From: an uncultured Gemmatimonadota bacterium
GTDB taxonomy: Bacteria; JAAXHH01
Direction of reading: 5' to 3'
DNA length: 64,000 bases
Assembly: GCA_951812955.1 (NCBI GenBank)
Contig: OX638340.1
Location: forward strand, 480,001 to 544,000
In this document: piece by piece, positions 5,414-44,100 of the stretch
How the letters are laid out: each line of letters begins with the position of its first letter
How positions within the stretch are numbered: the first letter of the stretch is position 1
Program-made: the position numbers and the translations under genes
Notes under the pieces: generated by a model
What the model saw: the letters and a program-made list of their open reading frames with translations, nothing else
Told to the model about the DNA's origin: nothing
The model's database searches: none

Positions 5414-6748
5414 TCACTTCATCTGCTCCAGCCTGGTCCGGTACTTGTCATACAGGTCGGTGTGCTTGCTGCTGATATCGACCGGCCGGCCCTGGATGAA
5501 GGCCCGTTCCACCTGGGTCATGATCTCGAGGGGGTCCCCGTCGGTCACGATCAGGGTGGCGTCCTTGCCCGTCTCCAGGGAACCGAGCCTGTCTTCCACC
5601 CCGAGGATACGCGCCGGATAGAGGGTGACGGATTTCAACGCCTCTTCCCTGGGCAGGCCGTAGGCCGCCGCGGTCGCGGCGTGGTAGGGCAGGTTCCGTA
5701 CGTTCGAACCGCCGCCGCCTTCGAGCCATACCCTGCGCTCGCCGATGCAGAAATCCAGGCCGGCTTCATAGAGTTTCAGGGCATTGGTGAACGGCGCGTC
5801 ATAGGCTTCCCAACGGCGAGCGGGCAGGTAATGCACGGCGCCGATGATCACAGGGATCGCGTTTTCCTTCAAGCGGTCCGCCACCCGCCATACGTCCGCC
5901 CCGCCGACCAGGACGATCTTGAGATCTTCGGCGAGGGCCCAGTCGATGGCGGCGTGGATCTGTTTTACTTCAGATGCGTGTACGAGAACGGGAAGTTCTT
6001 TCTTAAGCACCGGGATCATCGACTCCCAGCCGAGGTCGGAGGGATGAAACGGCCCGCCGGTGCGTTCGGCCTCCTTGGCGATCATGTATGCCCTGGCTTC
6101 GCGAAAGGCGTCGCGAAGTCTGGTAAGGGCTTCCCTGCGCGCTTCGACCTGCTTCTCCCGGCTGTCCGCACCGGGAAAATCGAATATGCGGTAGGATGGC
6201 CAGCGTACGTGAAGTCCCACCGTCGATTGCAGCGTCATTTCCTCAGTGGTCCAGCCATCCAGCGCGATAAGGCCGGAAAGCCCAGAGATCAGGCCGCCAC
6301 TGGGCATGGTCAGGGCGGTCAGTATCCCGTTCGCACGGGCAACAGGGAAGTACTCGCTGTCGGGATTCACGGCGGTAACCGCGCGGACGCTCGGGGTAAC
6401 GTCCCCGATTTCCACGTTGTCCTGGGTCGCCCGCACCGAGCTGATCTCGGTCAGTCCCAGGGTCGTCGGCGCGGCGATCAGCCCGGGATACACATGTTTC
6501 CCCGTAACGTCGATGACCAGCGTGTTTTCGGGCAGGGCCAGATCGGTCCCGATACCTGTTATAACGCCGGCATCAAAGAGCACCGTGGCGCCTTCGAGGA
6601 CAGCGCCGCTCACCGTATGCACGGTTCCGCCAGTCAGGGCGATGGGACGAGCCTGCGGCCCGGACGGTTTCTGCTTGGAAGCAGCCGCCTCGTGGACCAT
6701 GGGACCGGATGCGAGACCAGCAATCAACAATACAGCCATCGTTCGCAT
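5414..6748 (-). CDS. Secreted amidohydrolase-family protein lacking the N-terminal HxH metal motif
   Basis: It has amidohydrolase-fold hallmarks: PGLI near the N-terminus and a C-terminal G.LE.GKDA.L.V.DGDPL. Where HxH is expected the sequence reads PGLIAAPTTLG. The most probable start is the ATG at 6746-6748, giving MRTMAVLLIAGLASG, a signal-peptide-like N-terminus. The ORF track extends to 6892 through in-frame tandem repeats. Confidence 0.65.
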   Translation of the reverse strand: MRTMAVLLIAGLASGPMVHEAAASKQKPSGPQARPIALTGGTVHTVSGAVLEGATVLFDAGVITGIGTDLALPENTLVIDVTGKHVYPGLIAAPTTLGLTEISSVRATQDNVEIGDVTPSVRAVTAVNPDSEYFPVARANGILTALTMPSGGLISGLSGLIALDGWTTEEMTLQSTVGLHVRWPSYRIFDFPGADSREKQVEARREALTRLRDAFREARAYMIAKEAERTGGPFHPSDLGWESMIPVLKKELPVLVHASEVKQIHAAIDWALAEDLKIVLVGGADVWRVADRLKENAIPVIIGAVHYLPARRWEAYDAPFTNALKLYEAGLDFCIGERRVWLEGGGGSNVRNLPYHAATAAAYGLPREEALKSVTLYPARILGVEDRLGSLETGKDATLIVTDGDPLEIMTQVERAFIQGRPVDISSKHTDLYDKYRTRLEQMK

Positions 6749-6834
6749 CCAACAAGCGCCTGCGAGTACAGCCATTGTCCGCCTCCAACAAGCGCCTGCG
6801 AGTACAGCCATCGTTCGATTCCAACAGGCGCTGG
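6732..6834. repeat. In-frame 36-nt tandem repeat, about 2.9 copies, spanning the start codon region of the 5414..6748 gene
   Basis: The three units are acagccatcgttcgcatccaacaagcgcctgcgagt, acagccattgtccgcctccaacaagcgcctgcgagt and acagccatcgttcgattccaacaggcgctgg. Each carries an in-frame ATG on the minus strand. In the extended ORF the repeat shows up as the peptide TMAVLAGACW(R/M)R repeated. Confidence 0.85.
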
Positions 6835-6900
6835 AAGACTTCGCCGAACGCCGCGTCCCCTGGATTGTCCGGGGCAATATCACCATCTCCAACCTCCATT

Positions 6901-6940
6901 CGCCGGGAAACCGGCCTGTCCGCCGGGAAACCGGCCTGTC
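6901..6940. repeat. Perfect tandem 20-mer x2 in the intergenic region between the two amidohydrolase genes
   Basis: cgccgggaaaccggcctgtc repeated twice back to back. Confidence 0.9.
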
Positions 6941-6945
6941 CGGTC

Positions 6946-9936: not shown

Positions 9937-10008
9937 GATTCTCCTCCTGCAGAAAAGATTCAGATACTGATTAAAACCCAAAGCAGCACAATAACTTACT
10001 AACATTCA

Positions 10009-10548
10009 CTACATTAATTGTTCAATGACTTTGTCCAGTGCCTGGTCGATCTGGGCAGCGAGTGCTTTCCCGTCCAACCGGCCGATGGGATGATCGATCT
10101 CGACGATGGGATAGCCACCGTTTCCCAGTTGTTCGGCCATCACCCGTGCGGTGTGTGTGAAGTTGGACGTACAAAGCAGTGCGGCCGGTAGTCCAAGGTG
10201 CTCGAGCATGAGGACATCGTGCATGCTGCACGCGCTGCAGGACCCTCAGTCTCCGACTCCCACGAGTGCGAAATTGCAGCGCCTTACGATAAGATCGGTC
10301 ATCTCTTCTGACAGCACGCGACTTGCGCTTTCCTTGGTGTATTCAACCGAATCCACAGGATGGGCCAGGCGAATCGTTAACTGCTCGAAGAGGCCGCGCA
10401 GGATCACGTCGGAATTGGGCTTGCCGTTTCCCACCAGCGCGGCTGTGACATGCTGAACACCCAGGGGCCGCAGCGCCATGCGAAGGGTCGATGTGTCGGC
10501 CGAGGCCGTGGGATCAACGAGGGTTACCGACATTTTCACACGCTCCAT
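10009..10548 (-). CDS. UGSC-motif selenoprotein candidate. An in-frame TGA at 10246..10248 is read as selenocysteine. The ORF track splits it into 10246..10548 and 10009..10224.
   Basis: The upstream ORF ends ...RCNFALVGVGD-TGA. The same frame continues GSCSACSMHDVLMLEHLG... for 78 more codons to the stop at 10009. This yields a U-G-S-C redox-type motif. GC-rich palindromes lie directly 3' of the UGA: CUGCA-GCGCG-UGCAG and CGUGCA-GCA-UGCACG. Confidence 0.5.
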
Positions 10549-10583
10549 GTTTCCGCGGAAGGCGGGTATTCAGTACGTTCCGT

Positions 10584-11603
10584 TCATTGCCTGGTGGTGC
10601 AGGTTGAGATCCAGCGCGTAACCGGCCGCGACCCTACGCCTCTGCCCGAACCCAGCCACGGCGGAATGATGGCGGAATGTCCGCCGGCCGATCCTCCAGC
10701 GAACATGATCCATATGCCATCCCGGTCCGGCGTCAGCGTGACGGGTTCTTCGGGACCCAGGTCGTCGTGCCTGCCCGTTGCCTGGATTTCACGTCCCGTG
10801 GCCGCCGTGCGTTCAAAAAGCGCTTCACGGATCATTTCACGAGTCCACCCGGCCCGGCTGAATACCGATCGGTGTTCCGGGCAGATGATGAATACGATGG
10901 CTGCGCCGGCGTAGTTGGTCGTCCGGGCGACGCGCGCAAACGAGTCGATCAGGCCATCGGGCTGGTCGTTAACGTGGTCGGCTACGGAGTGGGGTGCTTC
11001 GGCGGCAAGGACCGTGACGGCGTTTTTGTCCGGGGAAACGCCCAGTTCTTCGCCCTGGGTCGGCCATCCGGCGCAACGGGCTTCCGGCAGACAGTACGCA
11101 ATGCGTCCGGCATGGGCTATCGTCGCCCGGTCCAGGTCACCCGGCACACTGCCGACACCGTTTCGTATGACCAGGTTCAAGGCACGCCCCAGCGTCAGAT
11201 TGGACCGGTTGCCCGCACCGAGCACGGCCGTTTCCGGATTGAAACGCAACGACTCCACAACGGGACCGTGGACGATCGCCAGGGGGGCGGCGCCGCCAGT
11301 GCTGGCCGACGGTCCGACGATATTGAACGCCGGGTCCAGGATGGCCTCGACCGTGGCAAGGACGACAGGGAACAGCGAATCAGTGCATCCCGCCATAACC
11401 GCGTTCGCCGCCACCAGTTCGGCTGAGATGGATCTGTTCCGCTCAGGCACCGTGCCGATTTCACGGTCCGGTTCGATGCCGTGCGCATCGAGCATCCGAT
11501 CAATGCGATCGCGGACGGGCGGCACCACGGGAAGGCCATCCGACCAGCCCCGGTCGAAGGCGTATTCTATGGCATCAATTTCGGATTCGACCTGGTGGGC
11601 CAT
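10584..11603 (-). CDS. Hypothetical protein, about 340 aa, Cys-containing, function unknown
   Basis: A long ORF. Its start is set at the ATG at 11601-11603 (MAHQVESEIDAIEYAF...), just after the upstream cytochrome gene stop. I recognise no family. It sits between the cytochrome c gene and the selenoprotein candidate on the same strand, with gaps of 8 and 35 nt. Confidence 0.45.
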   Translation of the reverse strand: MAHQVESEIDAIEYAFDRGWSDGLPVVPPVRDRIDRMLDAHGIEPDREIGTVPERNRSISAELVAANAVMAGCTDSLFPVVLATVEAILDPAFNIVGPSASTGGAAPLAIVHGPVVESLRFNPETAVLGAGNRSNLTLGRALNLVIRNGVGSVPGDLDRATIAHAGRIAYCLPEARCAGWPTQGEELGVSPDKNAVTVLAAEAPHSVADHVNDQPDGLIDSFARVARTTNYAGAAIVFIICPEHRSVFSRAGWTREMIREALFERTAATGREIQATGRHDDLGPEEPVTLTPDRDGIWIMFAGGSAGGHSAIIPPWLGSGRGVGSRPVTRWISTCTTRQ

Positions 11604-11611
11604 TAGCAGCG

Positions 11612-12004
11612 TTACCTGCCGTAGTAGTTTTCCAGATAGGTAAGAATGGTTTCTTCGGTTTTCGAATCGAATTTCTTCAATCCCTTTTCCGCCTGCATCC
11701 AACGGATAGCATCAAGCCACTCCGCGCGGTTCGCCCGATAGGAACGGATGATCTGGGTAGGATGGCATTGGGCGCATTCCCTTTCCACGACGGGGTAGCC
11801 GTCGCCCATGATCAGCCGGGTCCGGTGGTTCAGTTCCAGGCCCGTTCGCGGGTCGAACATCGTTACGGGCTTGGCCGCCTCGGCCCTGGCATTGGCCTGT
11901 GCGACTTTCGATCGCTCCGCTTCGTAGTAGATCAGACCGACTACCAGGACATCCAGGATGATGACGAAGGCAAACTGGCCAAGTACGCGCAGAAACGAAT
12001 TCAT
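11612..12004 (-). CDS. Membrane-anchored monoheme cytochrome c family protein
   Basis: A 130-aa protein with an N-terminal hydrophobic helix (FAFVIILDVLVVGLIYY) and a single CxxCH heme-binding motif (CAQCH). Confidence 0.55.
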   Translation of the reverse strand: MNSFLRVLGQFAFVIILDVLVVGLIYYEAERSKVAQANARAEAAKPVTMFDPRTGLELNHRTRLIMGDGYPVVERECAQCHPTQIIRSYRANRAEWLDAIRWMQAEKGLKKFDSKTEETILTYLENYYGR

Positions 12005-12052
12005 GGACCACTCCTGTGATTGTGCAGACAGGGATGTGCGGCTATACGGGTA

Positions 12053-14248
12053 CTAACGCGCTCTCGCGCCGATGGGGAGTCCGAACCCTATGTACCACGT
12101 TCGGCCCGCCGCCGGTTCGAAAAAGCGGTCTCCAAAGGCATTTGGGACGATGGAACCATTGTAACGGGTGTCGAACAGGTTGTTGACGCCCGCGAAGAGG
12201 ACGCCGCCGATCATGTCCCCATTATAGGTAATACCCGCACGTAAATCAAACAGCGCGTATCCCTCGTTGATGAAGTCCGATTTCGGCTTACTGCTTCCCG
12301 GTGCGGGACCGTTGAAGTCGTTGGCAAAGTACTCCGCGGTCCACTGCGCGTTCATTTCCACGAAGGCACCGCTGCAGGGGTGAGTGTATGTGATACCGGC
12401 GAACAGATGATGGGGTGGTACACCGGGCACTTCGTTGTCCGAAAGCTGGTACAGCCTGGTGTCACCTTCGACCTCCCGTTCGAGTTCAAAATCGCTGAAT
12501 TGGAACTGCATCCCCGTGTAGGCCAGCGCCATGTCGAGCGCGGGGAGTGGTGACCAGGTCAGCTTCAGTTCGATGCCCCGGTTCCGCGTCTGGCCGGCGT
12601 TCCTGAAGAAGATCTCGTCCGTCTCAGGATTGTCGATCTGGAAGGGCAAAAGCATGTTGCGGATCCCAAAGGCGAAAACGGCCGCGTCATAGGACAACCC
12701 GGCTTCCGGCAAAAATCCCTTCACACCTGCCTCGAATCCCCGCAGTTGTTCGGGTTCCAGGCCGGGATTGAATCCCCCGGCTTCCGTGGGCCGGTTGCTC
12801 AGTTCCGACGTGGTAGGGGTCTGGAAAGCCGTGGAAAAATTGCCGTAGAACGCCGTGAGGGGAGCCGGCCGGAATGCCACACCCAGCTGGGGACTGAACT
12901 GTGCCATGTTCCGTGTCCCAGAGTCGTCGGTCCGGTCGGAAAGATACCGGTCCGTCGCCTCGAACTTGAACCGGTCATAACGACCGCCGGCGGTTACGAT
13001 GATATCCGGCCACGGCGTCCATTCGAATTCCACGAAGGGTCCGATGCCGTCAACGTTTTCCTCCTGATCCAGCCTGAGATCCCCCAGCGAAAGTTCGTCG
13101 AATACGCGTCCGTCGTCCAGTGCGCCCACAAGGTCGCCGGGTATGCCCTCGTTCCCGTATTCAAGTCGTTCATCCCGCTGTATCTCCACGTCCATTCCCA
13201 AGGTCATTCTCAATCCGCCCGAACCGATTCCGGTCTGATGGCTGTAAACGCCCCGGGCTCCGGCGCCACGGCGGTCCAGGTCGATGACCCGTCCCGGGAT
13301 AGGGTTGAACAGCGAGCGCCCCATGCCGAACACCGTAATCTCTCCCTGCCTTCCTTCTGTTTCGTACCGCAAGGAAACGCCACCCTGGGCCTGCCTGACC
13401 CGCTTCGAAGCGCCCTGGCTCCGGACGAAGAACCTCGCGCCGGCGGGGTCCGTCTCGGCCGTGGCCTTGTCCAGCGAACTCGGATTGAACTGGTAAGGCG
13501 CGTTGAAGTAGTTGATGACGGTAGTCAGATGCCAGGTCTCGTTGATCGCACGTTTACCCACCACGTTGATCCCGGTCGACCGTGCGAAGGCGTGGTCGCG
13601 GTACCCATCGATCCATAACGTGTTGTAATTGACGAGAAACTGGTTGTCGCCGGCGCTGCCGGTTGCCTTGCCCTGTATACGCCGAAAACCGTGAGAGCCG
13701 GTGATGAAGCGCGGCGTGACTTGAAAAGGCCGGTCCGAAGCCTCCTCCGAGCGAATCTGGATGACCCCACCCGCCGCATTGCCGTAAAGCGATGAACTGG
13801 GTCCGCGAAGAACCTCGATCTGCCCTGCTGAAGTGAGGTCGAGGTTATTCAGCTGTGACTGGCCGTCGGCCATGGTCAGGGGAATGCCGTCCAGCACCAG
13901 TTTCACGCCACGGACGCCGAATGAAGCCCGGCTTCCCAGGCCCCGGATGCTGATCCGGTCGCCCTGGGACACGTTGTTGCGATTGTGCACGATAATGCCG
14001 GGCAGGCTGCGCACGCTCTCCTCCAGCGACAGCCCCGGTTCGGCAAGCTGAATCGCGTCCCGGTCCACCACGTCCACTGCGTAGGGTACGTCGAGCACGG
14101 GGCGGACGTACCTCGTGGCCCTCACCTCGACGGGCTGGAGGATGTAATCGACGGAAGCGTCGGTGGTATCCGGGTCGGACTGCTGCCAGGCGTTGGCGGG
14201 AAGCAGGTAGGACAGAATTACAAAACAAAAAGGAAGGAATGGTCTCAT
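12053..14248 (-). CDS. TonB-dependent outer-membrane receptor
   Basis: A 731-aa protein with a signal peptide, an N-terminal plug region with a TonB-box-like motif, beta-barrel repeats, and a C-terminal aromatic terminus ending in ...ARAR. Confidence 0.85.
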   Translation of the reverse strand: MRPFLPFCFVILSYLLPANAWQQSDPDTTDASVDYILQPVEVRATRYVRPVLDVPYAVDVVDRDAIQLAEPGLSLEESVRSLPGIIVHNRNNVSQGDRISIRGLGSRASFGVRGVKLVLDGIPLTMADGQSQLNNLDLTSAGQIEVLRGPSSSLYGNAAGGVIQIRSEEASDRPFQVTPRFITGSHGFRRIQGKATGSAGDNQFLVNYNTLWIDGYRDHAFARSTGINVVGKRAINETWHLTTVINYFNAPYQFNPSSLDKATAETDPAGARFFVRSQGASKRVRQAQGGVSLRYETEGRQGEITVFGMGRSLFNPIPGRVIDLDRRGAGARGVYSHQTGIGSGGLRMTLGMDVEIQRDERLEYGNEGIPGDLVGALDDGRVFDELSLGDLRLDQEENVDGIGPFVEFEWTPWPDIIVTAGGRYDRFKFEATDRYLSDRTDDSGTRNMAQFSPQLGVAFRPAPLTAFYGNFSTAFQTPTTSELSNRPTEAGGFNPGLEPEQLRGFEAGVKGFLPEAGLSYDAAVFAFGIRNMLLPFQIDNPETDEIFFRNAGQTRNRGIELKLTWSPLPALDMALAYTGMQFQFSDFELEREVEGDTRLYQLSDNEVPGVPPHHLFAGITYTHPCSGAFVEMNAQWTAEYFANDFNGPAPGSSKPKSDFINEGYALFDLRAGITYNGDMIGGVLFAGVNNLFDTRYNGSIVPNAFGDRFFEPAAGRTWYIGFGLPIGARAR

Positions 14249-14305: not shown

Positions 14306-14935
14306 CTAATCCAATGCACGAATTTTGACATTCTTGAAACGGATTTTGCCCTGGCCGAAGGCCTGCAGCACGACGACGCCGCTGTAATGGGAGGAATCCT
14401 GGATCTTAACGGCTTCTTCCCCGTTGAGCGTGACCGTGATGTCGCGTCCGTCGGCGGTGATGACCATGGTGTTCCACTGGCCTTCGGTTTTCGGTGGCGG
14501 TTCGTATATGGCCAGCGCCACGATGCTGCCCGTGGTATATCCCGAGCTATGGGTGTCTGCGATATTGATCTCGTAGAAAGAATACTGATTCACCCTCGCC
14601 CCGGTATCGCGCGGTCCCCGGACGAATACGCCGCTGTTATGTCCGGCGTCCTGGTTGAACTGCACACTCAGCTCGAAATCGGTGAATTCGTCGTAGGTAC
14701 CGATGTATCCGGGACCCCGGCCCGTTACTTCACCGGTGAGCATGCCGTCCTCCACCGTCCAGGTTGCCGTTCCGCCCCGGTGGGTCCATCCCAGGAGGGT
14801 ATTGCCGTCGAAAAGGAGCTTCCAGCCCGCCTCTTTCTCGGCGTCGGTCAGCATGTTGTCCTGCGCGGCGGCCGTGCCGTGTATACCGACAAGGATCATG
14901 ACGGCGGCCGCCACGCTCCACATGTAGCGTTTCAT
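14306..14935 (-). CDS. DUF1080 (3-keto-disaccharide hydrolase-like) domain protein, secreted
   Basis: A 209-aa protein with a signal peptide. It carries GWKLLFDGNTLLGW...DFELSVQF...GHNSGVF...G, which is characteristic of DUF1080 concanavalin-like proteins. Confidence 0.75.
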   Translation of the reverse strand: MKRYMWSVAAAVMILVGIHGTAAAQDNMLTDAEKEAGWKLLFDGNTLLGWTHRGGTATWTVEDGMLTGEVTGRGPGYIGTYDEFTDFELSVQFNQDAGHNSGVFVRGPRDTGARVNQYSFYEINIADTHSSGYTTGSIVALAIYEPPPKTEGQWNTMVITADGRDITVTLNGEEAVKIQDSSHYSGVVVLQAFGQGKIRFKNVKIRALD

Positions 14936-14983
14936 TGCGTATCTCCTCTGTTTTTCGTTTGCTCAGGCTCTCAGTCTTTCCGA

Positions 14984-17038
14984 CTATTCGCCTTCTTCTG
15001 CTTCGGGTTCTTCACCCAGTTTCAACGCGACCAGTTCGGCGGGATGGCCGCTGGCGCCTACGGTCATGATGATGTACTGCACGTCGTTATGCATATAGGT
15101 CATGGGCATGCCGCTCTGGGAGGCGGGCAGTTCGATTGAGGCAACGACCTCGCCCGTCGCCTTGTCGTAGGCATGGAAATACGGATCACCGCCGTAACCT
15201 TCACCGGCGAAGAGCAGCGTGCTCGTCACCAGGGAACCGATCCGGGTGGCCTTGCCGGTCTTCGGAAGATCGACACCGGCGAGCTCGGGCAGATCCTTGA
15301 TGGCCTGCGGCGTATCTCCGTTCGGCGCCATCCATACGTGGTCGCCCGAATTCATGTCGACCGCGGTGATGCGGCCCCAGGGCGGCTTGACCAGCGGAAT
15401 CTCTCCGAATACTCTCGGCGCACGCAGACCGGCCGAGAAGTAGTCCATGTCCGATTCTTCAGGATCCGGCGCACGTAACGCCAGTTTGGAAATGCTGGTG
15501 TTGGAGGGGATGAAGTTCACGCCGGAAACCGGATCCAGGCAGGTCATGTTCCAGTTGACCCCGCCATTGGCGCCCGGGATCTGAATCGTCCCGATCGTTC
15601 CATCCGGCGCCTCGGCAAGGGATGGAGGCTGGAAAAGCGGACCATACCGGTGATTCCCCATCAGGTTGATCGCTTCCTGGCGGACCGCAGGCGTGAAGTC
15701 GACCAGATCGTCCTGACTGATGCCCTGGTGTTCCCAGGGAGCCGGCTTGACAGGGATCGGCTGCGTGGGTGACGCCCGGTCGCCGGGCACGTCGCTCGCA
15801 GGAACGTCCGTCTCGGGCATATCCCAGATCGGTTCGCCGGTCACCCGGTCGAAGACATAGGAATACCCCTGCTTGGTGTTCTGGATAACGATCTTCCGAG
15901 CCTCGCCGTCGATCATTACGTCGGCCAGGATCGGCGCGGCGGGGTTGTCGTAATCCCAGATGTCATGGTGGACGATCTGGAAGTGCCAGATCTTCTCGCC
16001 GGTGTTGTAATCGACGGCCACCAGGCTGTTAGCGAACAGGTTGTCACCCAGGCGGTGTCCACCGTAATAGTCGTTCGTCGGCGCTTCGATGGGCAGATAC
16101 GCATAGCCCAGTTCCTCGTCGACTGAAATGGAGGTCCACACGCCGGCGTTCCCGGTATAGGACTTCGAATTCTGCTCCCAGGTTTCGGATCCTTCCTCGC
16201 CCTCCTCCGGTATGACCTTGAACTTCCAGACGATCGCGCCGGTTCGGGCGTCGTAGGCCACGACGTCACCAGGTGAATTGGTCATCGACCTTGGCCGGAA
16301 TCCCGCGGCGAGCGCGGGCGGAACGAGAACGAGATCCCCCACGACCGTCGCGGGAGACGTATTCGCCAGGTTGCCCACCGGGCTGACGTTTTCCGAATTT
16401 CGCCAGCCTTCCATCATGTCGACGACGCCGTTATTGCCGAAACCGGACACGGGGATCCCCGTATCAGCGTCTAGGGCTACCAGGTAGAATCCCCGGGTGA
16501 TCAGGATGACGCGGTTGTCGCCCTGGCCGTCGGTCCAGAAGGAGACGCCGCGGCCCGAATTGCGTCGGGGAGCCGAAGCCCAGCGTTCTTCGTCCTCGAC
16601 CGGCCGGTAGGTCCACATCGTCTCGCCCGTTTCAGGCTCGATGGCCATGGCACTGCGCCGCGTGCCCGCCGTGGAATACAGCATGCCGTCGACATAGATC
16701 GGCACAGGCTGCGCATAGAACTCGGGCCGGGGGCCGAAGTTGTCTTGTTTCCACGTCCAGGCGACCTCGAGACGGCCCACATTATCCGCGTTGACCTGAT
16801 CCAGCGGAGAATACCGCGTGTAGGCCAGGTCGCGACCGAGCATGCGCCATTCGCTGTCGGACTGCTCAACGGATATAATCCTGCCCGGCTGTCTCTCGAC
16901 CGCGGGTTCGCACGCTGAAACTACCAGGAACGCCAGAACCAGGCCAATCGCCGGGGGCGTCCATCGACACATACGGAAATATCGGATCATTACGCACTGC
17001 CTCCCATGATACAAATTAAATGATGCCGCGAATCGCAT
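14984..17038 (-). CDS. PQQ-dependent dehydrogenase (quinoprotein), secreted or lipoprotein
   Basis: A 684-aa protein with repeated W-containing beta-propeller motifs (AWTWKQD, WTY, WHFQ) typical of the PQQ quinoprotein dehydrogenase family. The N-terminus is signal- or lipobox-like (LVVSAC). Confidence 0.8.
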   Translation of the reverse strand: MRFAASFNLYHGRQCVMIRYFRMCRWTPPAIGLVLAFLVVSACEPAVERQPGRIISVEQSDSEWRMLGRDLAYTRYSPLDQVNADNVGRLEVAWTWKQDNFGPRPEFYAQPVPIYVDGMLYSTAGTRRSAMAIEPETGETMWTYRPVEDEERWASAPRRNSGRGVSFWTDGQGDNRVILITRGFYLVALDADTGIPVSGFGNNGVVDMMEGWRNSENVSPVGNLANTSPATVVGDLVLVPPALAAGFRPRSMTNSPGDVVAYDARTGAIVWKFKVIPEEGEEGSETWEQNSKSYTGNAGVWTSISVDEELGYAYLPIEAPTNDYYGGHRLGDNLFANSLVAVDYNTGEKIWHFQIVHHDIWDYDNPAAPILADVMIDGEARKIVIQNTKQGYSYVFDRVTGEPIWDMPETDVPASDVPGDRASPTQPIPVKPAPWEHQGISQDDLVDFTPAVRQEAINLMGNHRYGPLFQPPSLAEAPDGTIGTIQIPGANGGVNWNMTCLDPVSGVNFIPSNTSISKLALRAPDPEESDMDYFSAGLRAPRVFGEIPLVKPPWGRITAVDMNSGDHVWMAPNGDTPQAIKDLPELAGVDLPKTGKATRIGSLVTSTLLFAGEGYGGDPYFHAYDKATGEVVASIELPASQSGMPMTYMHNDVQYIIMTVGASGHPAELVALKLGEEPEAEEGE

Positions 17039-17858: not shown

Positions 17859-19640
17859 TCAATATCTTCTCGGCCAGGGCATCTTGGGCGGACCGAAATC
17901 CGGCTCGCCCAGCAAGGGGGTCGACAGGCAGTAGAATCCGTGGTTGGCGAACAGCCAGACCAGGTTGCGGTCGTATTCCACATAGATGCCATGGGTCAGA
18001 TTGCCCAGTGCGTAGTCCGGGGTCCGGGATGGATCGAATTTCGGCACGAAGAAAGCGGTGATTTTCGGGTCGGAAAGGTCGGAGACATCGAAAACCTGAA
18101 CGCCGGCGTTGTAAAAGGCATAGAGAAGGATGTCTTCCTTGGGTGTACCGGGCTGGGTATAATAGCCGCTTCGTTTCGGACCGAAACTCCCGCGCCGCTG
18201 CACGAAATCCGTGAAGGGGGCGTCCGCGGGCGGTACCGGTCGGGGCAACGTGCCAAGCAGCCTGGGATTGGCGGGATCATTCACGTCGATCATGAAGATG
18301 TCTTTATACGGCTCCCAACCGTCCTCGTTCAGGGGATATCCGGAAAAATAGACCACACCGGTCTTTTCCATCTGCGTTACGTTGATGTAATCTCCCTCCG
18401 TGCCTGCTACGCTCGGGGGAAAGTTCAGGTGCCCCAGCGCCTTGATATCTGCCGGGTCCGATAGGTCCAGCGCGTAGAACCCGAGGCCGCCCATGGCGGC
18501 GTATCCGTACCTGCCGCCTTCTTCAACCGGTTTGGGCATGAAAATCGACATGCGGGCGCCGAACCAGGATGTCCGGTTGCCGGCGCGGGGATTGGCCCGG
18601 TAGGCGGCTTCATCTTCTGGATTCCCAAGTCTCTGGCCAGGTACGTTGAACTGGCTGATAAACACCGGATTGGCCGGGTCGGACATGTCCCAGGCCTGGT
18701 AGCCGGCCGAGTACAGGTCGCTCGGGTATTCGGTAAGCGCGTATTCCGCACTGGGCGCCGCGGCAACGAACATGTACTCGCCGCCGTGATAGGCGGGAAT
18801 ATCCCGAACGCCGGATCCCTGTTGCTGCCCGACAGGCGCATCGGGGTTTTCGTAGTCGGTGGTTCGCTCCGCCAGCAGCGTCCAGTCCGCCGGCAGGGGG
18901 CCGTTCATTTCATATACCTTGAATCCCTTGAGGTGATTGGCGTTTCGAATGGCTTCCACCTTGTCGGGTTCCGTGCGCTTGTCGTTGAGGACGCCGAAGC
19001 GGCGGATCTCGAAGGCCTGGACCATGACGTACTTGTCCAGGTCCTCGTTCCACTGGATGGACGCGGCGCCGAACATGTCGCCTTCGTCATAGGGGTTGAC
19101 CTCTTCGCCCGGTCCTTCCCCGGTCCAGGTGCTTCCCTTCTCGTGTACGACCTTCAAATCCTTCGGATCGGTGATATCATAGATTTTCAGGGCGCGGCGG
19201 ACGTACTGGTACATGTATCGTCGGCCGTCGAAATCGACGATGTTCTGCCAGGTATGGAACGGTTCGACCGTGATCGGGTAGTAGGCCTCGACGGTCATGT
19301 CCTTCGCGTACTCGTTCGTATCCCAGTAGTCTAGCTGGCCTTCAAATGGTTTGGATTCATGCTGATGGGGCGTGGCCGCCGGGTAGATGAATCGGCCGGT
19401 TTCCGGATCCATGCCGTAACCGGCGGGATCGGGTTCGGGTGGCGTACGGTCCTCCGCCAGCGCGTCGGCCCGGATGACGTATTCGTCGGTAACGGGCGGC
19501 GGTGCAGGCGTCTCACTGTCTGGGGAAGTACCGCAGGCCAGGGCCGCACTCAGGCAAATAACAATTCCAATGAGTGTAGTCTTGTCGCGTAAATGGCGAT
19601 GGTTCGATACATCAGCGTGGCGTTTTGGATTCATTAGCAT
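17859..19640 (-). CDS. Lipoprotein with LVIVD-type beta-propeller repeats, function unknown
   Basis: A 593-aa protein with a lipobox (LSAALACG). It has repeated D.SDPANP...G motifs, for example DLSDPADIKALG and DVNDPANPRLLG. Confidence 0.5.
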   Translation of the reverse strand: MLMNPKRHADVSNHRHLRDKTTLIGIVICLSAALACGTSPDSETPAPPPVTDEYVIRADALAEDRTPPEPDPAGYGMDPETGRFIYPAATPHQHESKPFEGQLDYWDTNEYAKDMTVEAYYPITVEPFHTWQNIVDFDGRRYMYQYVRRALKIYDITDPKDLKVVHEKGSTWTGEGPGEEVNPYDEGDMFGAASIQWNEDLDKYVMVQAFEIRRFGVLNDKRTEPDKVEAIRNANHLKGFKVYEMNGPLPADWTLLAERTTDYENPDAPVGQQQGSGVRDIPAYHGGEYMFVAAAPSAEYALTEYPSDLYSAGYQAWDMSDPANPVFISQFNVPGQRLGNPEDEAAYRANPRAGNRTSWFGARMSIFMPKPVEEGGRYGYAAMGGLGFYALDLSDPADIKALGHLNFPPSVAGTEGDYINVTQMEKTGVVYFSGYPLNEDGWEPYKDIFMIDVNDPANPRLLGTLPRPVPPADAPFTDFVQRRGSFGPKRSGYYTQPGTPKEDILLYAFYNAGVQVFDVSDLSDPKITAFFVPKFDPSRTPDYALGNLTHGIYVEYDRNLVWLFANHGFYCLSTPLLGEPDFGPPKMPWPRRY

Positions 19641-20781: not shown

Positions 20782-20976
20782 ATGTAGCTTCTCCTGGATA
20801 ATGGGTCCAACCGGCGCGCATGTATTCAGCCGCAGGGCGGATCAGTACACCGGTTGGCCGTGTTGCGTTTTTGGCGGTATGCCGGACTTCCAGGCCAGGA
20901 TTTTGCGGAGAACAACCGGGCTCAGAAGCAGTGAGGAAGGATGAAAAACAAGTCGTAAGAATCTGGAAATATCGGA

Positions 20977-21051
20977 TCGGGGCGGGGAGATTTGAACTCC
21001 CGACCTCCTGCTCCCGAAGCAGGCGCGCTGACCGGGCTGCGCTACGCCCCG
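20977..21051 (-). tRNA. tRNA-Pro (anticodon CGG)
   Basis: The minus-strand reverse complement CGGGGCGTAGCGCAGCCCGGTCAGCGCGCCTGCTTCGGGAGCAGGAGGTCGGGAGTTCAAATCTCCCCGCCCCGA folds as a cloverleaf. The anticodon loop is UUCGGGA, there is a GTTCAAATC T-arm, and there is no encoded CCA. Confidence 0.8.
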
Positions 21052-21099
21052 ATATGTGTACAAACAGGAGCAAGGACCCGGCGGGCTGCCTTGCCGAAA

Positions 21100-21173
21100 T
21101 CGGGGCGACTGGATTTGAACCAGCGACCACCAGCCCCCCATGCTGGTGCGCTACCTGACTGCGCTACGCCCCG
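21100..21173 (-). tRNA. tRNA-Pro (anticodon GGG)
   Basis: The reverse complement is CGGGGCGTAGCGCAGTCAGGTAGCGCACCAGCATGGGGGGCTGGTGGTCGCTGGTTCAAATCCAGTCGCCCCGA. The anticodon loop is AUGGGGG. Confidence 0.75.
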
Positions 21174-21252
21174 AAACTTCGGCGTGTAATTTACGGAGGC
21201 AGGGGGTTTCAGGCAAGGGAATTTTTCGGTGTCAGATCGTGGTCCGGCGTGG

Positions 21253-41190: not shown

Positions 41191-44100
41191 CTAACACTCA
41201 GCCACGGCTCGTGGATTCAACCCCTCCAACAACGTGTCGATCGTCTGACTGATGGCGGTCTCAGACTGCAAGGTCTCGACCGGAATCGACACGTGCAATC
41301 CTGCCTCGATCCTGTTTCGTAACTCCACGGCCATGAGGGAATCCACGCCCAGGCTGCGCCAGGTCTGCCCGGTCTCCACGCTCCCTGGGTCCACTTCCAA
41401 GATCCGGCTGATCGCATCGGTCACGAATTCCTCGATGTAGTCGCGCATTATGTCAGGGGATAGCGCGCTCAGATCGGCTTTCGATAGGGGTGGAATCGCC
41501 CGTGTCGCCTGCGCTCCGCGAACATCCGGTGGCAGGAACCGGGCAAGAAGCGTATCTGCTTTTGGCTCAGTCGTGGGGATTACGCCGACGCGGTGGACAT
41601 CGCGACGGAGTATTCGATCAAGCAGCGCGCCTGCCTCATCGGGCGGGATCGATCGCAGGCCCTGCCGCCTCATACGATCGACGGCTCGTTCGTCGGTCAT
41701 CATGCCCGTATCTTCCCAGGGCCCCCAGTTTACTGTCGTCACCGGCAGACCCTCCTGACTCCTGAGGTCCGCCAGGCCGTCGAGAAACGCGTTCGCAGCG
41801 GCGTAGGATGCCTGTCCGGCCGTACCGAGCAGGGAGGCCACCGACGAAAAGAGGACGAAGAGGTCCAGTTCGCGGTCGCGGGTAATCGCATGCAGGTTCC
41901 ACGCGCCGACCGTCTTGGGTTCGAGTACCCGGCGGAACCTTTCCGCATTCTGGGTGAGCAAAATGCCATCGTCCAGCACGCCGGCCCCGTGGAAGACGCC
42001 CCTGACCGGTCCGTGCTCGATTTCCAGGCCTGCCAAGAGACCTTCCATCGCATCACGCTCGGTCGCATCGGCCTGAACGTACTTCACTTTGCCGTTGGGA
42101 TCACTTTCCAGTGACGTATCCACATGATGTCTTCGCCCCGTCACGACGACCAGGCCGGCTCCCCGGTCGAGTAGCCAACCCGTCAGGAAGCGGCCGATCC
42201 CACCCGCGCCGCCCGTGACGAGGTAGGTTCCGCCCGGACGAATGATCGGATCATCTTCTCCCAGGGCAACAGGGACGGACGCACCGTCGTCTACGAGCAC
42301 CAGTTTGCCCATGTGCCGCGCCTGCGACATGAACCGGAAGGCATCCCGCGCCTCGGCAAGCGGGTATGCATGGTACGGCAGGGGACGTATGCTGCCATCC
42401 GCAGCCAAGTCGGCGATTTTCTGTAGCATGGCGCCCGCACGGTCCGGCTGTTCCTCGATGAACTGTGCAAGATCGATGGGATGATAGGATTTGTTGCGGT
42501 CGAACCGGTTGAGATCGATGAGTCCATGGTTCAGCACATCGGTTTTGCCGATCTCAATGAAACGTCCGTGGGGCGCAAGTACGGCCAGAGAAGCCATCAT
42601 GGCGGGACCAGACAGTGTGTTCAGGACGATATCCATTCCCTTCCCGTCCGTCTTCTCAATGATCTCTTCTGCGAAGTCCAGGGAACGGGAATCCATCACA
42701 TGCGAAACGCCTATTTCCCGCAGAAAGGCTCGTTTTTCATCAGATCCGGCCGTGGCAAACACCTCGGCCTCTGCCTGACGGGCGAGTTGAAGAGCGGCCA
42801 GCCCCACCCCTCCTGTCGCGTTGTGTACAAGAACGCGGTCGCCGGCGGATATTCCGCCACGTACCACGAGCCCGAGGTATGCCGTCAGGAAGGCCACGGG
42901 CAGCGTAGCGGCTTCTTCGATACCCAGGCTATCCGGCTTCCGGACGACCAGGGCGGCCTTCGCGGTCACGTAACCGGCCATGGCCATCGGCACCATGCCC
43001 ATGACCAAATCACCGACTTCCACAGAGTCAGTCCGGCTTCCGCGTGCAACCACCTCGCCGACGCATTCCCAACCGAAGGAAGGTGGACGCGGCAATGAGG
43101 CTCGCAGCATGCCGAGGGCGGTAAGTACGTCCCTGAAGTTCAGCGCGGTTGCCTGCATGCGGATGACGACCTCGTCCGGTGCTGGTTCACGCTCCCGCTC
43201 CGACACAAAGTGGAGATCGTCAATCGAACCGGGCGTCGACTGTGTAAGTCTGTAACTGGTATTAAAATATGAAGATGCGGAAACACGCTTCGCTTTGGTG
43301 TTTGACAGGTCTAACGGAACGAGACGACGGGTATACAGCTCGGTCTCCCGTACCGCGATCTCGCCGGTCAGTTTGTCCGCGGCCACGATACAGGCGAGAT
43401 GTTCCAAATCGATCTCGTCGGTTCCGGCTGGAAGGTCGATCATCGCACAGTTCAACTCGGGGTGCTCCTGCGCGGCGACCCGTCCGCATCCCCAGATCGT
43501 CCCGAGTTCCGGCTTCGACCGGTCGCCATCAACCACGGACTGGGCACCCGCCGTAATCAACCTCAGGCGGTACGACAGATCGGGACTGTCCAGCACCGCC
43601 CTGACCATTTCAAAGGATTCCAGCGCGGGGCCGGTATGTCGGTTCGACCGCCTGGCGCCTTTTCCAGTCCAGATTCCCACGACGCCGACCGGTTCCCCGG
43701 ATTCGGATCTCACTGAGCCCAGTCTGCCGGCGAGGGCGTCGGCCGGGCTTGCCTTGCACTCACTGGACGCATCGATGAATTCACTCTTCCCGCCGCGTCG
43801 AGCCAGGGCATTAGCCAGGCCGGTTCCGAGTCGCGGGTCCTCCGTAATCACGTACCAGTGCGATGTTGTGCCGGGTTCCACCTGGTCTTCCGGGATTGGC
43901 ATGGCCATCCAGGCTTCCCGGTAGATTCCCTGTGGGTTATCAAGGCCATGCCGGCCTGCGCCTGTCCTGAACAGACCCCCTCCTGCCCGGAACAGGGACA
44001 CGCCTTCCAGTTGTACCACAGGAAGGCCCTTGTCATCTACGAGGTACACATCGGCCAGCAGCCCACCGTCACTTGATTTCTCCCTCAGTCTGGCGTATGC

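What the first reader, a model, noticed from the sequence alone, without database searches (positions are those of the whole stretch)
10009..14248. Candidate redox operon: TonB-dependent receptor, membrane-anchored cytochrome c, unknown Cys-rich protein, selenoprotein
Four minus-strand genes are tightly spaced. The gaps are 49, 8 and 35 nt. They run in the order TonB-dependent receptor, membrane-anchored monoheme cytochrome c (CAQCH), an unrecognised Cys-containing protein of about 340 aa, and the UGSC selenoprotein candidate.

An AT-rich 70-bp gap at 9937-10008 separates the array from the downstream amidohydrolase genes.

A heme protein and a Sec protein bracketing an unknown enzyme suggests an uncharacterised periplasmic or membrane electron-transfer or detoxification module. 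The unknown middle protein matched no family I could recognise.
Basis: inference. Interest (0 to 1): 0.55.

Follow-up and report, generated by a model that had tools for sequence, protein, structure and literature searches.

The report
UGSC selenoprotein and its unnamed partner
The four neighbouring genes are real, but they form two units: a periplasmic PQQ-uptake and cytochrome unit, and a widely conserved cytoplasmic pair made of the UGSC selenoprotein (function unknown since about 2005) and an unnamed 339-residue enzyme-like partner that is repeatedly fused to thioredoxin-system domains.

Summary
Four minus-strand genes lie at 10009-14248 with gaps of 48, 8 and 35-50 nt and no terminator-like sites between them.

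The interpretation as a single heme-plus-selenium electron-transfer machine is not supported.

- **Conserved unit.** It is only the 339-aa protein plus UGSC. UGSC lies directly downstream in 72 of 80 genome loci from many phyla, and the key codon is TGA in 81 of 82.
- **Recoding signal.** A hairpin 13 nt after the TGA shows compensatory changes.
- **Fusions.** Among the 64 long relatives of the partner, 35 are fused to UGSC. Others are fused to AhpC/Trx-like domains, the ferredoxin:thioredoxin reductase catalytic chain, or a thioredoxin-reductase domain.
- **The receptor and cytochrome.** The receptor is a PqqU homologue (PDB E 1e-70). It, the anchored cytochrome c, a DUF1080 protein and a PQQ dehydrogenase form a periplasmic unit. 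That unit occurs without the pair, and the pair occurs without it.

Best reading: a cytoplasmic, thioredoxin-linked selenol/thiol reductase with an unknown substrate, sitting next to an unrelated PQQ module and probably co-transcribed with it.

The parts
10009..10533 (-). UGSC-family selenoprotein gene. The probable start is the ATG at 10533. An upstream in-frame ATG at 10548 is the alternative.
   Evidence: Pfam PF24696 gives E 8e-42. NCBIfam NF041046 scores 119.8 bits against a cut-off of 125. The reading frame is conserved on both sides of the TGA. The homologue start MPITLVDPT supports the 10533 start.
10246..10248 (-). In-frame TGA read as selenocysteine, the U of the D-U-G-S-C motif.
   Evidence: The same codon is TGA in 81 and TGC in 1 of 82 homologous genes across phyla. 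The D*GSC context is conserved.
10218..10232 (-). SECIS-like hairpin CGUGCA-GCA-UGCACG. It starts 13 nt after the UGA.
   Evidence: In 75 distinct homologous segments, 94.9% of cells are paired and 3 of 7 pairs show changes on both sides. No shuffle out of 500 reached the observed score, and slid registers score far lower. The window sequence alone does not fold better than shuffles. No Rfam family matches.
10584..11603 (-). 339-aa partner of UGSC, an unnamed family, probably the catalytic subunit. No signal peptide.
11385..11387 (-). Codon of Cys73 in the NAVMAGC motif, the only conserved cysteine of the partner protein.
   Evidence: It is C in 120 of 121 aligned family members. G72 is invariant.
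11612..12004 (-). Membrane-anchored monoheme c-type cytochrome. The CAQCH motif lies at nt 11762-11776.
   Evidence: C77, C80, H81 and M103 are invariant in 11 homologues. There is a hydrophobic N-terminal segment. Only weak SorB and FixO hits were found. It always follows the receptor gene, in 11 of 11 full-length homologues.
12053..14248 (-). TonB-dependent receptor, a PqqU (PQQ importer) homologue.
   Evidence: Pfam finds Plug plus barrel. The best NCBIfam hit is PqqU at 308 bits, below the equivalog cut-off of 1200. The best PDB hits are E. coli YncD/PqqU (6v81, 9c4o) at E 1e-70, and the next receptor scores 1e-15. The equivalents of K274 and R304 are kept.
14306..14935 (-). Secreted DUF1080 / 3-keto-disaccharide hydrolase family protein. 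It belongs to the periplasmic module and lies outside the finding's coordinates.
   Evidence: Pfam PF06439 gives E 3e-36. It is conserved upstream of the receptor in L093, L095, L097, L098, L099 and L102.
14984..17038 (-). PQQ-dependent dehydrogenase with a lipoprotein-type signal. It belongs to the periplasmic module and lies outside the finding's coordinates.
   Evidence: Pfam PF01011 gives E 2e-175 over the whole model. It is conserved upstream in L006, L093, L095 and L097.
9937..10008 (.). AT-rich 72-nt spacer between the UGSC stop codon and the amidohydrolase start.
   Evidence: Read directly from the sequence. No terminator-like site was scored there.

Best explanation
The stretch holds two functionally separate modules. 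In this lineage they lie side by side and are probably transcribed together.

**Module A (periplasm and outer membrane).** It consists of a PQQ-dependent dehydrogenase, a DUF1080 protein, a PqqU-type TonB-dependent receptor and a membrane-anchored monoheme cytochrome c. The receptor imports the cofactor PQQ. The cytochrome most likely takes the electrons from the quinoprotein.

**Module B (cytoplasm).** It consists of the unnamed 339-aa protein and the UGSC selenoprotein, working as a two-subunit enzyme.

Proposed mechanism of Module B:
1. The 339-aa subunit binds the still unknown substrate. It uses its single conserved cysteine (C73 in NAVMAGC) together with invariant Asp, Arg, Asn, His and Glu residues.
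2. The U-G-S-C motif of UGSC sits at the N-terminus of a helix in a Rossmann/flavodoxin-like domain. It exchanges a selenenylsulfide or disulfide with that cysteine and closes to an internal Se-S bond.
3. The thioredoxin system re-reduces UGSC.

Shown:
- The genes, the TGA and the hairpin.
- The near-obligate adjacency of the pair and its fusions.
- The fusions of the 339-aa domain to thioredoxin-system domains.
- The separability of modules A and B.

Inferred:
- The direction of electron flow.
- The role of C73.
- That the reaction is a reduction.
- That the cytochrome serves the PQQ dehydrogenase.
For: **The pair**
- UGSC lies directly downstream on the same strand in 72 of 80 genome loci, with a median spacing of 64 nt. 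Two more loci have it within 6 kb. The phyla include Chloroflexota, Methylomirabilota, Acidobacteriota, Actinomycetota, Alpha-, Beta- and Gammaproteobacteria, Myxococcota and Nitrospirales.
- Cys-type UGSC genes of actinomycetes are coupled to the same family in the reverse order, with overlapping stop and start codons.
- Of the 64 long proteins among the best 150 family representatives, 35 are fused to UGSC, in both orders. Six are fused to AhpC/Redoxin. Two are fused to the ferredoxin:thioredoxin reductase catalytic chain. One is fused to a thioredoxin-reductase domain with a CAVC motif.
- Trx-fused forms still have UGSC downstream.
- C73 is conserved in 120 of 121 members. D22, R133, N135, R140, D158 and E174 are invariant.

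**Selenoprotein status**
- TGA in 81 of 82 genes.
- A covarying hairpin follows the TGA.

**UGSC fold**

**Module A**
- The receptor's best PDB match is PqqU at E 1e-70.
- The neighbouring gene matches PF01011 at 2e-175.
- The receptor-cytochrome order is kept in 11 of 11 homologues.
- PqqU is reported as common in Gemmatimonadetes, and quinoproteins pass electrons to c-type cytochromes (PMC12124388). The closest UGSC halves are named Gemmatimonadetes by their sources.

**Separability**
- L097 has module A without B.
- L086-L089 and about 70 distant loci have B without A.
Against: - No substrate, activity or complex has been demonstrated, and no characterised relative of the 339-aa protein exists.
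- Nine of ten contigs of the cytochrome's clade that have enough downstream sequence keep the pair right after the cytochrome. The 8-nt gap implies co-transcription, so a lineage-specific functional link between A and B cannot be excluded.
- PQQ dehydrogenase homologues lie within 6 kb of the pair in four distant loci (L027, L036, L039, L056). This is a weak hint of a link.
- Five of 80 loci have no UGSC within 6 kb, so the partner can occur alone, at least locally.
- The receptor scores far below NCBIfam's PqqU equivalog cut-off. The equivalents of R365 and R536 are not aligned to Arg.
- The Sec-decoding machinery was not seen. No tRNA-Sec lies in the window.
Confidence: 0.6

Rival explanations
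1. The four genes form one periplasmic or membrane electron-transfer or detoxification module. Electrons pass between the heme of the cytochrome c, the unknown enzyme and the selenoprotein. The receptor imports the substrate.
For: The gaps are tight (48, 8 and 35-50 nt) and no terminator-like sites lie between the genes. The four-gene order is kept in relatives down to about 60% identity: L006, L007, L093, L094 and L098-L103.
Against: - The cytochrome and receptor are missing next to 60-64% identical orthologues of the pair and in all distant loci.
- The cytochrome and receptor occur without the pair in L097.
- The 339-aa protein and UGSC have no export signal, while c-type cytochromes mature in the periplasm (established knowledge).
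- The fusion partners of the 339-aa domain are thioredoxin-system domains, never heme domains.
- The receptor is a PqqU homologue and sits next to a PQQ enzyme.
Confidence: 0.08
2. The pair is a glycine- or proline-reductase-like enzyme. UGSC is the catalytic selenoprotein subunit, like GrdB or PrdB, and attacks a substrate bound to a carbonyl cofactor. The 339-aa protein is the GrdE/PrdA-like proprotein. It cleaves itself at G72|C73 to create a pyruvoyl group.
For: - UGSC has a weak hit to NCBIfam GrdB (TIGR01917, E 0.0033), covering the region that includes the Sec.
- The UxxC motif is shared with PrdB and GrdB (table in PMC2398784).
- The invariant Gly-Cys dipeptide recalls the Gly-Ser cleavage sites of pyruvoyl enzymes (my recollection, not tested).
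- The genes form a two-subunit arrangement.
Against: - The GrdB hit is 16 bits against a cut-off of 602.
- The 339-aa protein has no sequence or fold similarity to any solved or modelled family.
- In the model, C73 lies in a loop between two helices.
- The fusions to thioredoxin reductase, FTR-B and AhpC-like domains fit a dithiol relay. They would, however, also fit re-reduction of a PrdB-like Se-S bond.
Confidence: 0.12
3. In this lineage the pair works with the PQQ module. For example, it could process in the cytoplasm a product of the periplasmic dehydrogenase, or handle imported PQQ. The six-gene cluster would then be one pathway.
For: - The adjacency of the cytochrome and the pair is conserved in 9 of 10 informative contigs of the clade.
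- The gap is only 8 nt.
- PQQ dehydrogenase homologues lie near the pair in L027, L036, L039 and L056. GMC oxidoreductases lie near it in about 5 loci and in L086.
Against: - Most loci have no PQQ enzyme, receptor or cytochrome nearby.
- The neighbours of the pair are heterogeneous: SDR, thiolase, ABC transporters, luciferase-like and other genes. None is present in more than 12 of about 82 loci.
- The apparent enrichment, 4 of 80 loci, is marginal by my rough estimate.
Confidence: 0.1
4. The TGA is a genuine stop codon. The locus encodes two small unrelated ORFs or a pseudogene, not a selenoprotein.
For: Gene callers split the gene into two ORFs of 95-100 and 75 aa. No Sec machinery was seen in the window. 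No Rfam SECIS family matches.
Against: - TGA sits at the same codon in 81 of 82 genes across phyla, and protein conservation continues through it.
- Cys-type full-length homologues align across the site.
- The hairpin covaries.
- The family is curated as a selenoprotein family (PF24696, NF041046; PMC13188914).
Confidence: 0.02

Closest known systems
UGSC-containing protein family (Pfam PF24696, NCBIfam NF041046)
   Same: The window gene matches the family model and has the U-G-S-C motif with an in-frame TGA. [quoted passage not shown]
The 'UGSC/Unknown_1' fusion of Zhang and Gladyshev 2008 (PMC2398784, Fig. S1A)
   Same: That paper reports UGSC fused to a conserved domain of unknown function that carries a conserved Cys. 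I find that 35 of 64 long relatives of the 339-aa protein are fused to UGSC, and that the domain has one conserved Cys.
   Different: The published alignment is held only as an image, so the identity of Unknown_1 with this family could not be verified. That paper does not report the near-obligate gene pairing, the family size or the thioredoxin-system fusions.
Glycine reductase protein B and D-proline reductase (GrdB/GrdE, PrdB/PrdA)
   Same: Each is a two-subunit enzyme. A UxxC selenoprotein works with a larger substrate-binding partner, and thiol donors re-reduce it.
   Different: Sequence similarity of UGSC to GrdB is marginal (E 0.0033). The 339-aa partner shows no similarity to GrdE or PrdA, or to any known family. 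The organisms are mostly aerobic heterotrophs rather than Stickland fermenters.
Thioredoxin-dependent reductases with a dedicated redox partner, such as methionine sulfoxide reductases, peroxiredoxin/AhpF and arsenate reductase
   Same: A catalytic Cys is recycled through a CxxC or UxxC partner. Fusions to thioredoxin, thioredoxin-reductase or AhpC-like domains occur in some lineages.
   Different: The catalytic domain has no detectable relationship to any of them, and its fold has no solved analogue.
PqqU (YncD), the TonB-dependent PQQ importer of E. coli
   Same: It is the best structural-database relative of the window receptor, aligned full-length at E 1e-70. The K274 and R304 equivalents are conserved. 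The gene lies next to a PQQ-dependent dehydrogenase, and PqqU is reported as common in Gemmatimonadetes.
   Different: The score is far below the NCBIfam equivalog threshold (308 against 1200 bits). The equivalents of R365 and R536 are not Arg in the alignment. In this clade the gene is always followed by an anchored cytochrome c.

Membership tests
UGSC family (seleno)protein | Match to the family profile above the curated threshold. | tested here: met
   Pfam PF24696 scores 143.7 bits against a cut-off of 25. NCBIfam NF041046 scores 119.8 bits, just under its 125-bit cut-off.
UGSC family (seleno)protein | U/C-G-S-C motif at the conserved position. | tested here: met
   The context is VGVGD-U-GSCSAC, with TGA at 10246-10248. 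The same motif is present in 82 homologues.
Bacterial selenoprotein gene | In-frame UGA conserved among orthologues, with coding conservation on both sides. | tested here: met
   81 TGA and 1 TGC out of 82 genes.
Bacterial selenoprotein gene | SECIS stem-loop shortly 3' of the UGA. | tested here: met
   The hairpin is at +16 to +32. 94.9% of cells are paired, there are compensatory changes, and no shuffle out of 500 reached the score. The single-sequence fold is not significant. No Rfam family matches.
Bacterial selenoprotein gene | Genome encodes selA, selB, selD and tRNA-Sec. | not testable with these tools
   No tRNA-Sec lies in the 64-kb window. The rest of the genome is not available.
Thioredoxin fold (proposed for UGSC in PMC2398784) | A Trx-like beta-alpha-beta-alpha-beta-beta-alpha fold with the redox motif at a helix N-terminus. 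| tested here: not met
GrdB/PrdB-type selenoprotein reductase | Significant similarity to GrdB or PrdB. | tested here: not met
   TIGR01917 gives E 0.0033 and 16.4 bits against a cut-off of 602. No PF07355 hit was found at E <= 10.
GrdB/PrdB-type selenoprotein reductase | A pyruvoyl-forming proprotein partner (GrdE or PrdA). | tested here: not met
   The 339-aa partner matches no Pfam or NCBIfam model. Self-cleavage cannot be tested in silico.
PqqU PQQ importer | Equivalog-level profile score. | tested here: not met
   NF041535 is the top hit, but at 307.7 bits against a cut-off of 1200.
PqqU PQQ importer | Closest solved relative is PqqU, and the key PQQ-binding residues are kept. | tested here: inconclusive
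   6v81 and 9c4o match at E 1e-70, and the next receptor scores 1e-15. The K274 and R304 equivalents are conserved. R365 aligns to Ile and R536 to Glu in a loop-rich alignment. The residue list comes from PMC12124388.
c-type cytochrome | A CxxCH heme-attachment motif and export to the periplasm. | tested here: met
   CAQCH is invariant, as is M103. An N-terminal hydrophobic anchor is visible in the sequence. No Pfam cytochrome model matches, so the class is undefined.
Single four-gene operon as a conserved functional unit | The gene set is kept together across divergent genomes. | tested here: not met
   It is kept only within one clade. The pair occurs alone in L086-L089 and in distant loci. 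The receptor and cytochrome occur alone in L097.
Single four-gene operon as a conserved functional unit | Co-transcription in this genome. | not testable with these tools
   The short gaps and the absence of terminator-like sites are compatible with it. One promoter-like match at 12249-12221 lies inside the receptor gene.

The most novel reading that the evidence does not exclude
The 339-aa protein and UGSC together form a very widespread, so far undescribed two-component selenoenzyme. The family has about 7800 clusters at 50% identity and spans many bacterial phyla. Its catalytic subunit has a fold with no solved analogue. The enzyme draws electrons from the thioredoxin system to reduce a substrate class that is not yet known. 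If so, it would give a function to one of the most abundant orphan selenoprotein families of aquatic microbiomes.
Probability: 0.5. Interest if true: 0.75.

Novelty: new variant of a known kind. Interest (0 to 1): 0.6.

Why it matters
- **An old open question.** UGSC has been listed since 2005-2008 among the most abundant selenoproteins of ocean and freshwater metagenomes. A 2026 review still describes the group of selenoproteins that includes it as largely uncharacterised.
- **A concrete handle.** UGSC has a near-obligate partner, adjacent in 72 of 80 loci and often fused to it. The partner is an enzyme-like protein with a single conserved Cys. Evolution has repeatedly welded this partner to thioredoxin, thioredoxin-reductase and FTR domains.
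- **Testable without selenium.** The natural Cys-type pairs and the fusions can be expressed without the Sec machinery, so the question can be tackled directly at the bench.
- **An annotation gap.** The partner family has thousands of members and no Pfam or NCBIfam model. UGSC genes are routinely split into two ORFs.
- **A cautionary point.** A tight, probably co-transcribed gene row is not evidence of one machine.

Tried and rejected
- **Family searches for the 339-aa protein.** Pfam and NCBIfam at strict and permissive thresholds, on the single protein and on 31 members, found nothing beyond the fused redoxin domains.
- **PDB by sequence profile.** Nothing was found.
- **The afdb50 library** was not available.
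- **Single-sequence folding of the SECIS region** is no better than shuffles. Rfam has no match. Only the comparative count was informative.
- **A third conserved neighbour of the pair.** ORF clustering over about 82 loci found none. The commonest were SDR in 12 loci, an ABC ATPase in 8, thiolase in 7 and PQQ dehydrogenase in 6.
- **Whether Trx/AhpC fusions replace UGSC.** They do not. UGSC is still downstream.
- **Homology of two unknown proteins.** The 593-aa unknown upstream in the window and the 595-aa unknown upstream in L086 are not homologous.
A Cys-type homologue was modelled instead.
- **The Unknown_1 alignment of the 2008 paper** is stored as an image and could not be compared.

Full report
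**What is in the sequence**

On the minus strand there are four ORFs:
- a 731-aa TonB-dependent receptor (12053-14248);
- a 130-aa protein with an N-terminal hydrophobic anchor and CAQCH (11612-12004);
- a 339-aa protein starting at the ATG at 11603 (10584-11603);
- a UGSC gene (10009-10548) interrupted by an in-frame TGA at 10246-10248 in the context VGVGD-U-GSCSAC.

The gaps are 48, 8 and 35 nt. The last is 50 nt if the second ATG at 10533 is used. That ATG has a GGAG 9 nt upstream and matches the start of homologues. A 72-nt AT-rich spacer follows the UGSC stop codon.

The simple scan finds no terminator-like site between the genes. It finds one promoter-like match inside the 3' end of the receptor gene.

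The middle protein is not Cys-rich. The co-directional row continues upstream with a DUF1080 / 3-keto-disaccharide-hydrolase gene (14306-14935) and a PQQ-dependent dehydrogenase gene (14984-17038).

**Family assignments**

- Receptor: Pfam gives Plug plus barrel.
- Fourth gene: Pfam gives UGSC (PF24696, E 8e-42).
- The other two genes: Pfam gives nothing.
- NCBIfam ranks PqqU first for the receptor (308 bits, below the equivalog cut-off of 1200). It puts the UGSC family model at 119.8 bits, just under its cut-off of 125.
- The 339-aa protein has no hit in either library, even when 31 family members are scanned at permissive thresholds.

**The selenoprotein call**

I collected 80 genome loci. 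In the UGSC genes next to relatives of the 339-aa protein, the codon aligned with the window's TGA is TGA in 81 cases and TGC in one. The D-U-G-S-C motif and the downstream residues are conserved.

A hairpin (consensus UCGUGCA-GUG-UGCACGA) begins 13 nt after the UGA. In the window it is CGUGCA-GCA-UGCACG at 10232-10218.
- Over 75 distinct sequences, 94.9% of cells are paired.
- Three of seven pairs show changes on both sides.
- No shuffle out of 500 reaches the observed covariation.
- Slid registers collapse.

Folding the window sequence alone is not informative, and Rfam has no model for it. No tRNA-Sec lies in the window. The decoding machinery therefore cannot be checked.

**The conserved unit is a gene pair**

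A database search with the 339-aa protein returned 642 relatives. All are unnamed and none has a Pfam domain, apart from fused redoxin domains.

In 72 of 80 genome loci a UGSC gene follows directly on the same strand, at a median spacing of 64 nt. Two more loci have it within 6 kb. Five have none within 6 kb, and one contig is too short to tell. The phyla represented:
- Chloroflexota, including many Dehalococcoidia;
- Methylomirabilota/Rokubacteria;
- Acidobacteriota;
- Actinomycetota;
- Alpha-, Beta- and Gammaproteobacteria;
- Myxococcota;
- Nitrospirales.

Cys-type UGSC genes from actinomycetes are followed, with overlapping stop and start codons, by a 350-355-aa protein. hhalign assigns that protein to the same family (probability 100, E 7e-65 and 4e-56). 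The pairing therefore does not depend on gene order or on Sec versus Cys.

No third gene is shared. The commonest neighbours (SDR, ABC ATPase, thiolase, PQQ dehydrogenase, luciferase-like, GMC oxidoreductase) each occur in at most 12 of about 82 loci.

**Fusions**

A profile of the family, searched against 1.84 billion cluster representatives, finds:
- 7777 proteins at E <= 1e-3;
- 2323 proteins at E <= 1e-30.

Among the best 150, 64 proteins are 400 aa or longer. Their extra domains are:

| Fused domain | Number of the 64 |
|---|---|
| UGSC | 35 |
| AhpC/TSA-Redoxin | 6 |
| Ferredoxin:thioredoxin reductase catalytic chain | 2 |
| Low-molecular-weight thioredoxin-reductase domain, CAVC motif (P0295) | 1 |

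The UGSC fusions come in two forms. In some, UGSC is N-terminal and full length (P0199, P0242). In others it is C-terminal and cut by the gene caller exactly at the TGA (P0172, P0179, P0240). Tandem duplications of the 339-aa domain also exist (P0167).

Forms with an N-terminal Trx or AhpC-like domain still have UGSC downstream. Every fusion partner is a dithiol/disulfide exchange module.

**The partner protein itself**

- Cys73, in NAVMAGC, is the only conserved cysteine (120 of 121).
- G19, D22, G23, P25, G72, G113, G131, R133, N135, R140, L144, D158, G166 and E174 are invariant.
- There is no signal peptide.
- AlphaFold2 with 121 sequences gives pLDDT 91.3 and pTM 0.91.
- Foldseek gives no hit with E below 1e-3.
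- A PDB profile search by sequence is empty.

I therefore treat it as an uncharacterised family with no solved structural analogue.

**UGSC fold**

The model has pLDDT 85 and is a parallel three-layer alpha/beta domain. The U/C-G-S-C motif lies at the N-terminus of a helix after a beta-strand.

The VGVGD-U-G stretch weakly resembles a GxGxxG loop. I do not build on that.

**The receptor and cytochrome belong elsewhere**

The receptor's best solved relatives are E. coli YncD/PqqU (6v81, 9c4o) at E 1e-70 over the full length, and the next receptor scores only 1e-15. The equivalents of the functionally critical K274 and R304 are conserved, whereas R365 and R536 are not aligned to Arg (residue roles from PMC12124388).

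That paper also reports that PqqU is common in Gemmatimonadetes and that quinoproteins hand electrons to c-type cytochromes. The closest UGSC halves are named Gemmatimonadetes by their sources.

I then anchored a metagenome scan on the cytochrome. Every full-length homologue (60-100% identity, 11 of 11) has the receptor directly upstream. DUF1080 lies upstream of the receptor wherever sequence is available, and the PQQ dehydrogenase lies upstream in L093, L095 and L097.

Two observations separate the modules:
- L097, a 627-kb contig with 71% cytochrome identity, has PQQ dehydrogenase, DUF1080, receptor and cytochrome. The pair is absent, and the next gene is a convergent xylose-isomerase-like gene.
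- Orthologues of the pair at 60-64% identity (L086-L089) have neither receptor nor cytochrome.

All four proteins of the PQQ unit carry signal, lipoprotein or anchor sequences. The pair has none.

**What I conclude**

The window juxtaposes two modules and, given the 8-nt gap, probably co-transcribes them.
- A periplasmic PQQ module: dehydrogenase, DUF1080, PqqU-type importer and anchored cytochrome c.
- A cytoplasmic two-subunit selenoenzyme made of the 339-aa protein and UGSC.

The most likely mechanism for the second is a selenol/thiol relay. The substrate is turned over at C73 of the large subunit. The resulting oxidised cysteine is resolved by the Sec of UGSC, and the Se-S bond closes within U-G-S-C. 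The thioredoxin system then re-reduces it.

The pairing, the fusions, the conserved residues and the recoding signals are shown. The direction of electron flow, the role of C73 and the substrate are inferred.

A conserved adjacency of the two modules within this clade (9 of 10 informative contigs) leaves room for a lineage-specific link, which I rate as unlikely but not excluded.

**Relation to what is known**

UGSC is a known but functionally orphan selenoprotein family (PMC1976440, PMC2398784, PMC13188914). The 2008 GOS paper mentions a fusion of UGSC with a conserved domain called Unknown_1 that carries a conserved Cys. The fusions found here make it likely that Unknown_1 is this family. 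The published alignment is held only as an image, so this could not be checked.

I found no paper describing the following:
- the near-obligate gene pairing;
- the size of the partner family;
- its thioredoxin-system fusions;
- its fold.

The window's genes are ordinary members of this pair. What is new is the definition of the pair as a system and the separation from the cytochrome and receptor.

Noticed in passing
window 14306-17038 (-): A PQQ-dependent dehydrogenase (PF01011, E 2e-175, lipoprotein-type signal) and a DUF1080 / 3-keto-disaccharide hydrolase protein lie directly upstream of the receptor. With the PqqU-like receptor and the anchored cytochrome c they form a conserved periplasmic cluster (L006, L093, L095, L097).
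   Followed up: yes
window 6731-6831 and 6901-6942: A 36-nt unit repeated 2.8 times (87% matches) and a perfect 20-nt unit repeated 2.1 times lie between the two amidohydrolase genes. The first falls inside the N-terminal part of the 5414-6892 ORF as listed from its TTG start. The real start of that gene is therefore probably further downstream.
   Followed up: partly
window 17859-19640 (-): A 593-aa ORF has a lipoprotein-like N-terminus and no Pfam match. It is not related to the 595-aa unknown protein upstream of the pair in L086.
   Followed up: partly
window 12221-12249 (-): A promoter-like match, TTGATT-17-TATAAT (10 of 12), lies inside the 3' end of the receptor gene, about 215 nt upstream of the cytochrome start. 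Three such sites were found in the 7.5-kb region scanned, against 2.0 expected by chance.
   Followed up: no
L017, L020, L071, L072 (genome loci): Some genomes carry two copies of UGSC, and in several cases two copies of the partner, within 6 kb. In L017 and L020 the second pair is in the reverse order, with UGSC first.
   Followed up: partly
P0026-P0041, P0111 (alignment A1, C-terminus): A subset of partner proteins ends in a GVCxDC-type CxxC tail. The window protein has only one Cys there (C335, in ...WISTCTTRQ). The five Trx/AhpC-fused members share a PGCGS motif in the linker.
   Followed up: no
L027, L036, L039, L056; L086: PQQ dehydrogenase homologues lie within 6 kb of the pair in four distant loci, from Alphaproteobacteria and Acidobacteriota. 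GMC oxidoreductases lie near it in several others. This may be a weak association with alcohol or sugar dehydrogenases. It was not tested statistically.
   Followed up: partly
window 41191-47478 (-): A very long ORF of 2095 aa. It was not examined.
   Followed up: no
window 20974-21174 (-): Two adjacent tRNA-Pro genes, with anticodons CGG and GGG.
   Followed up: no
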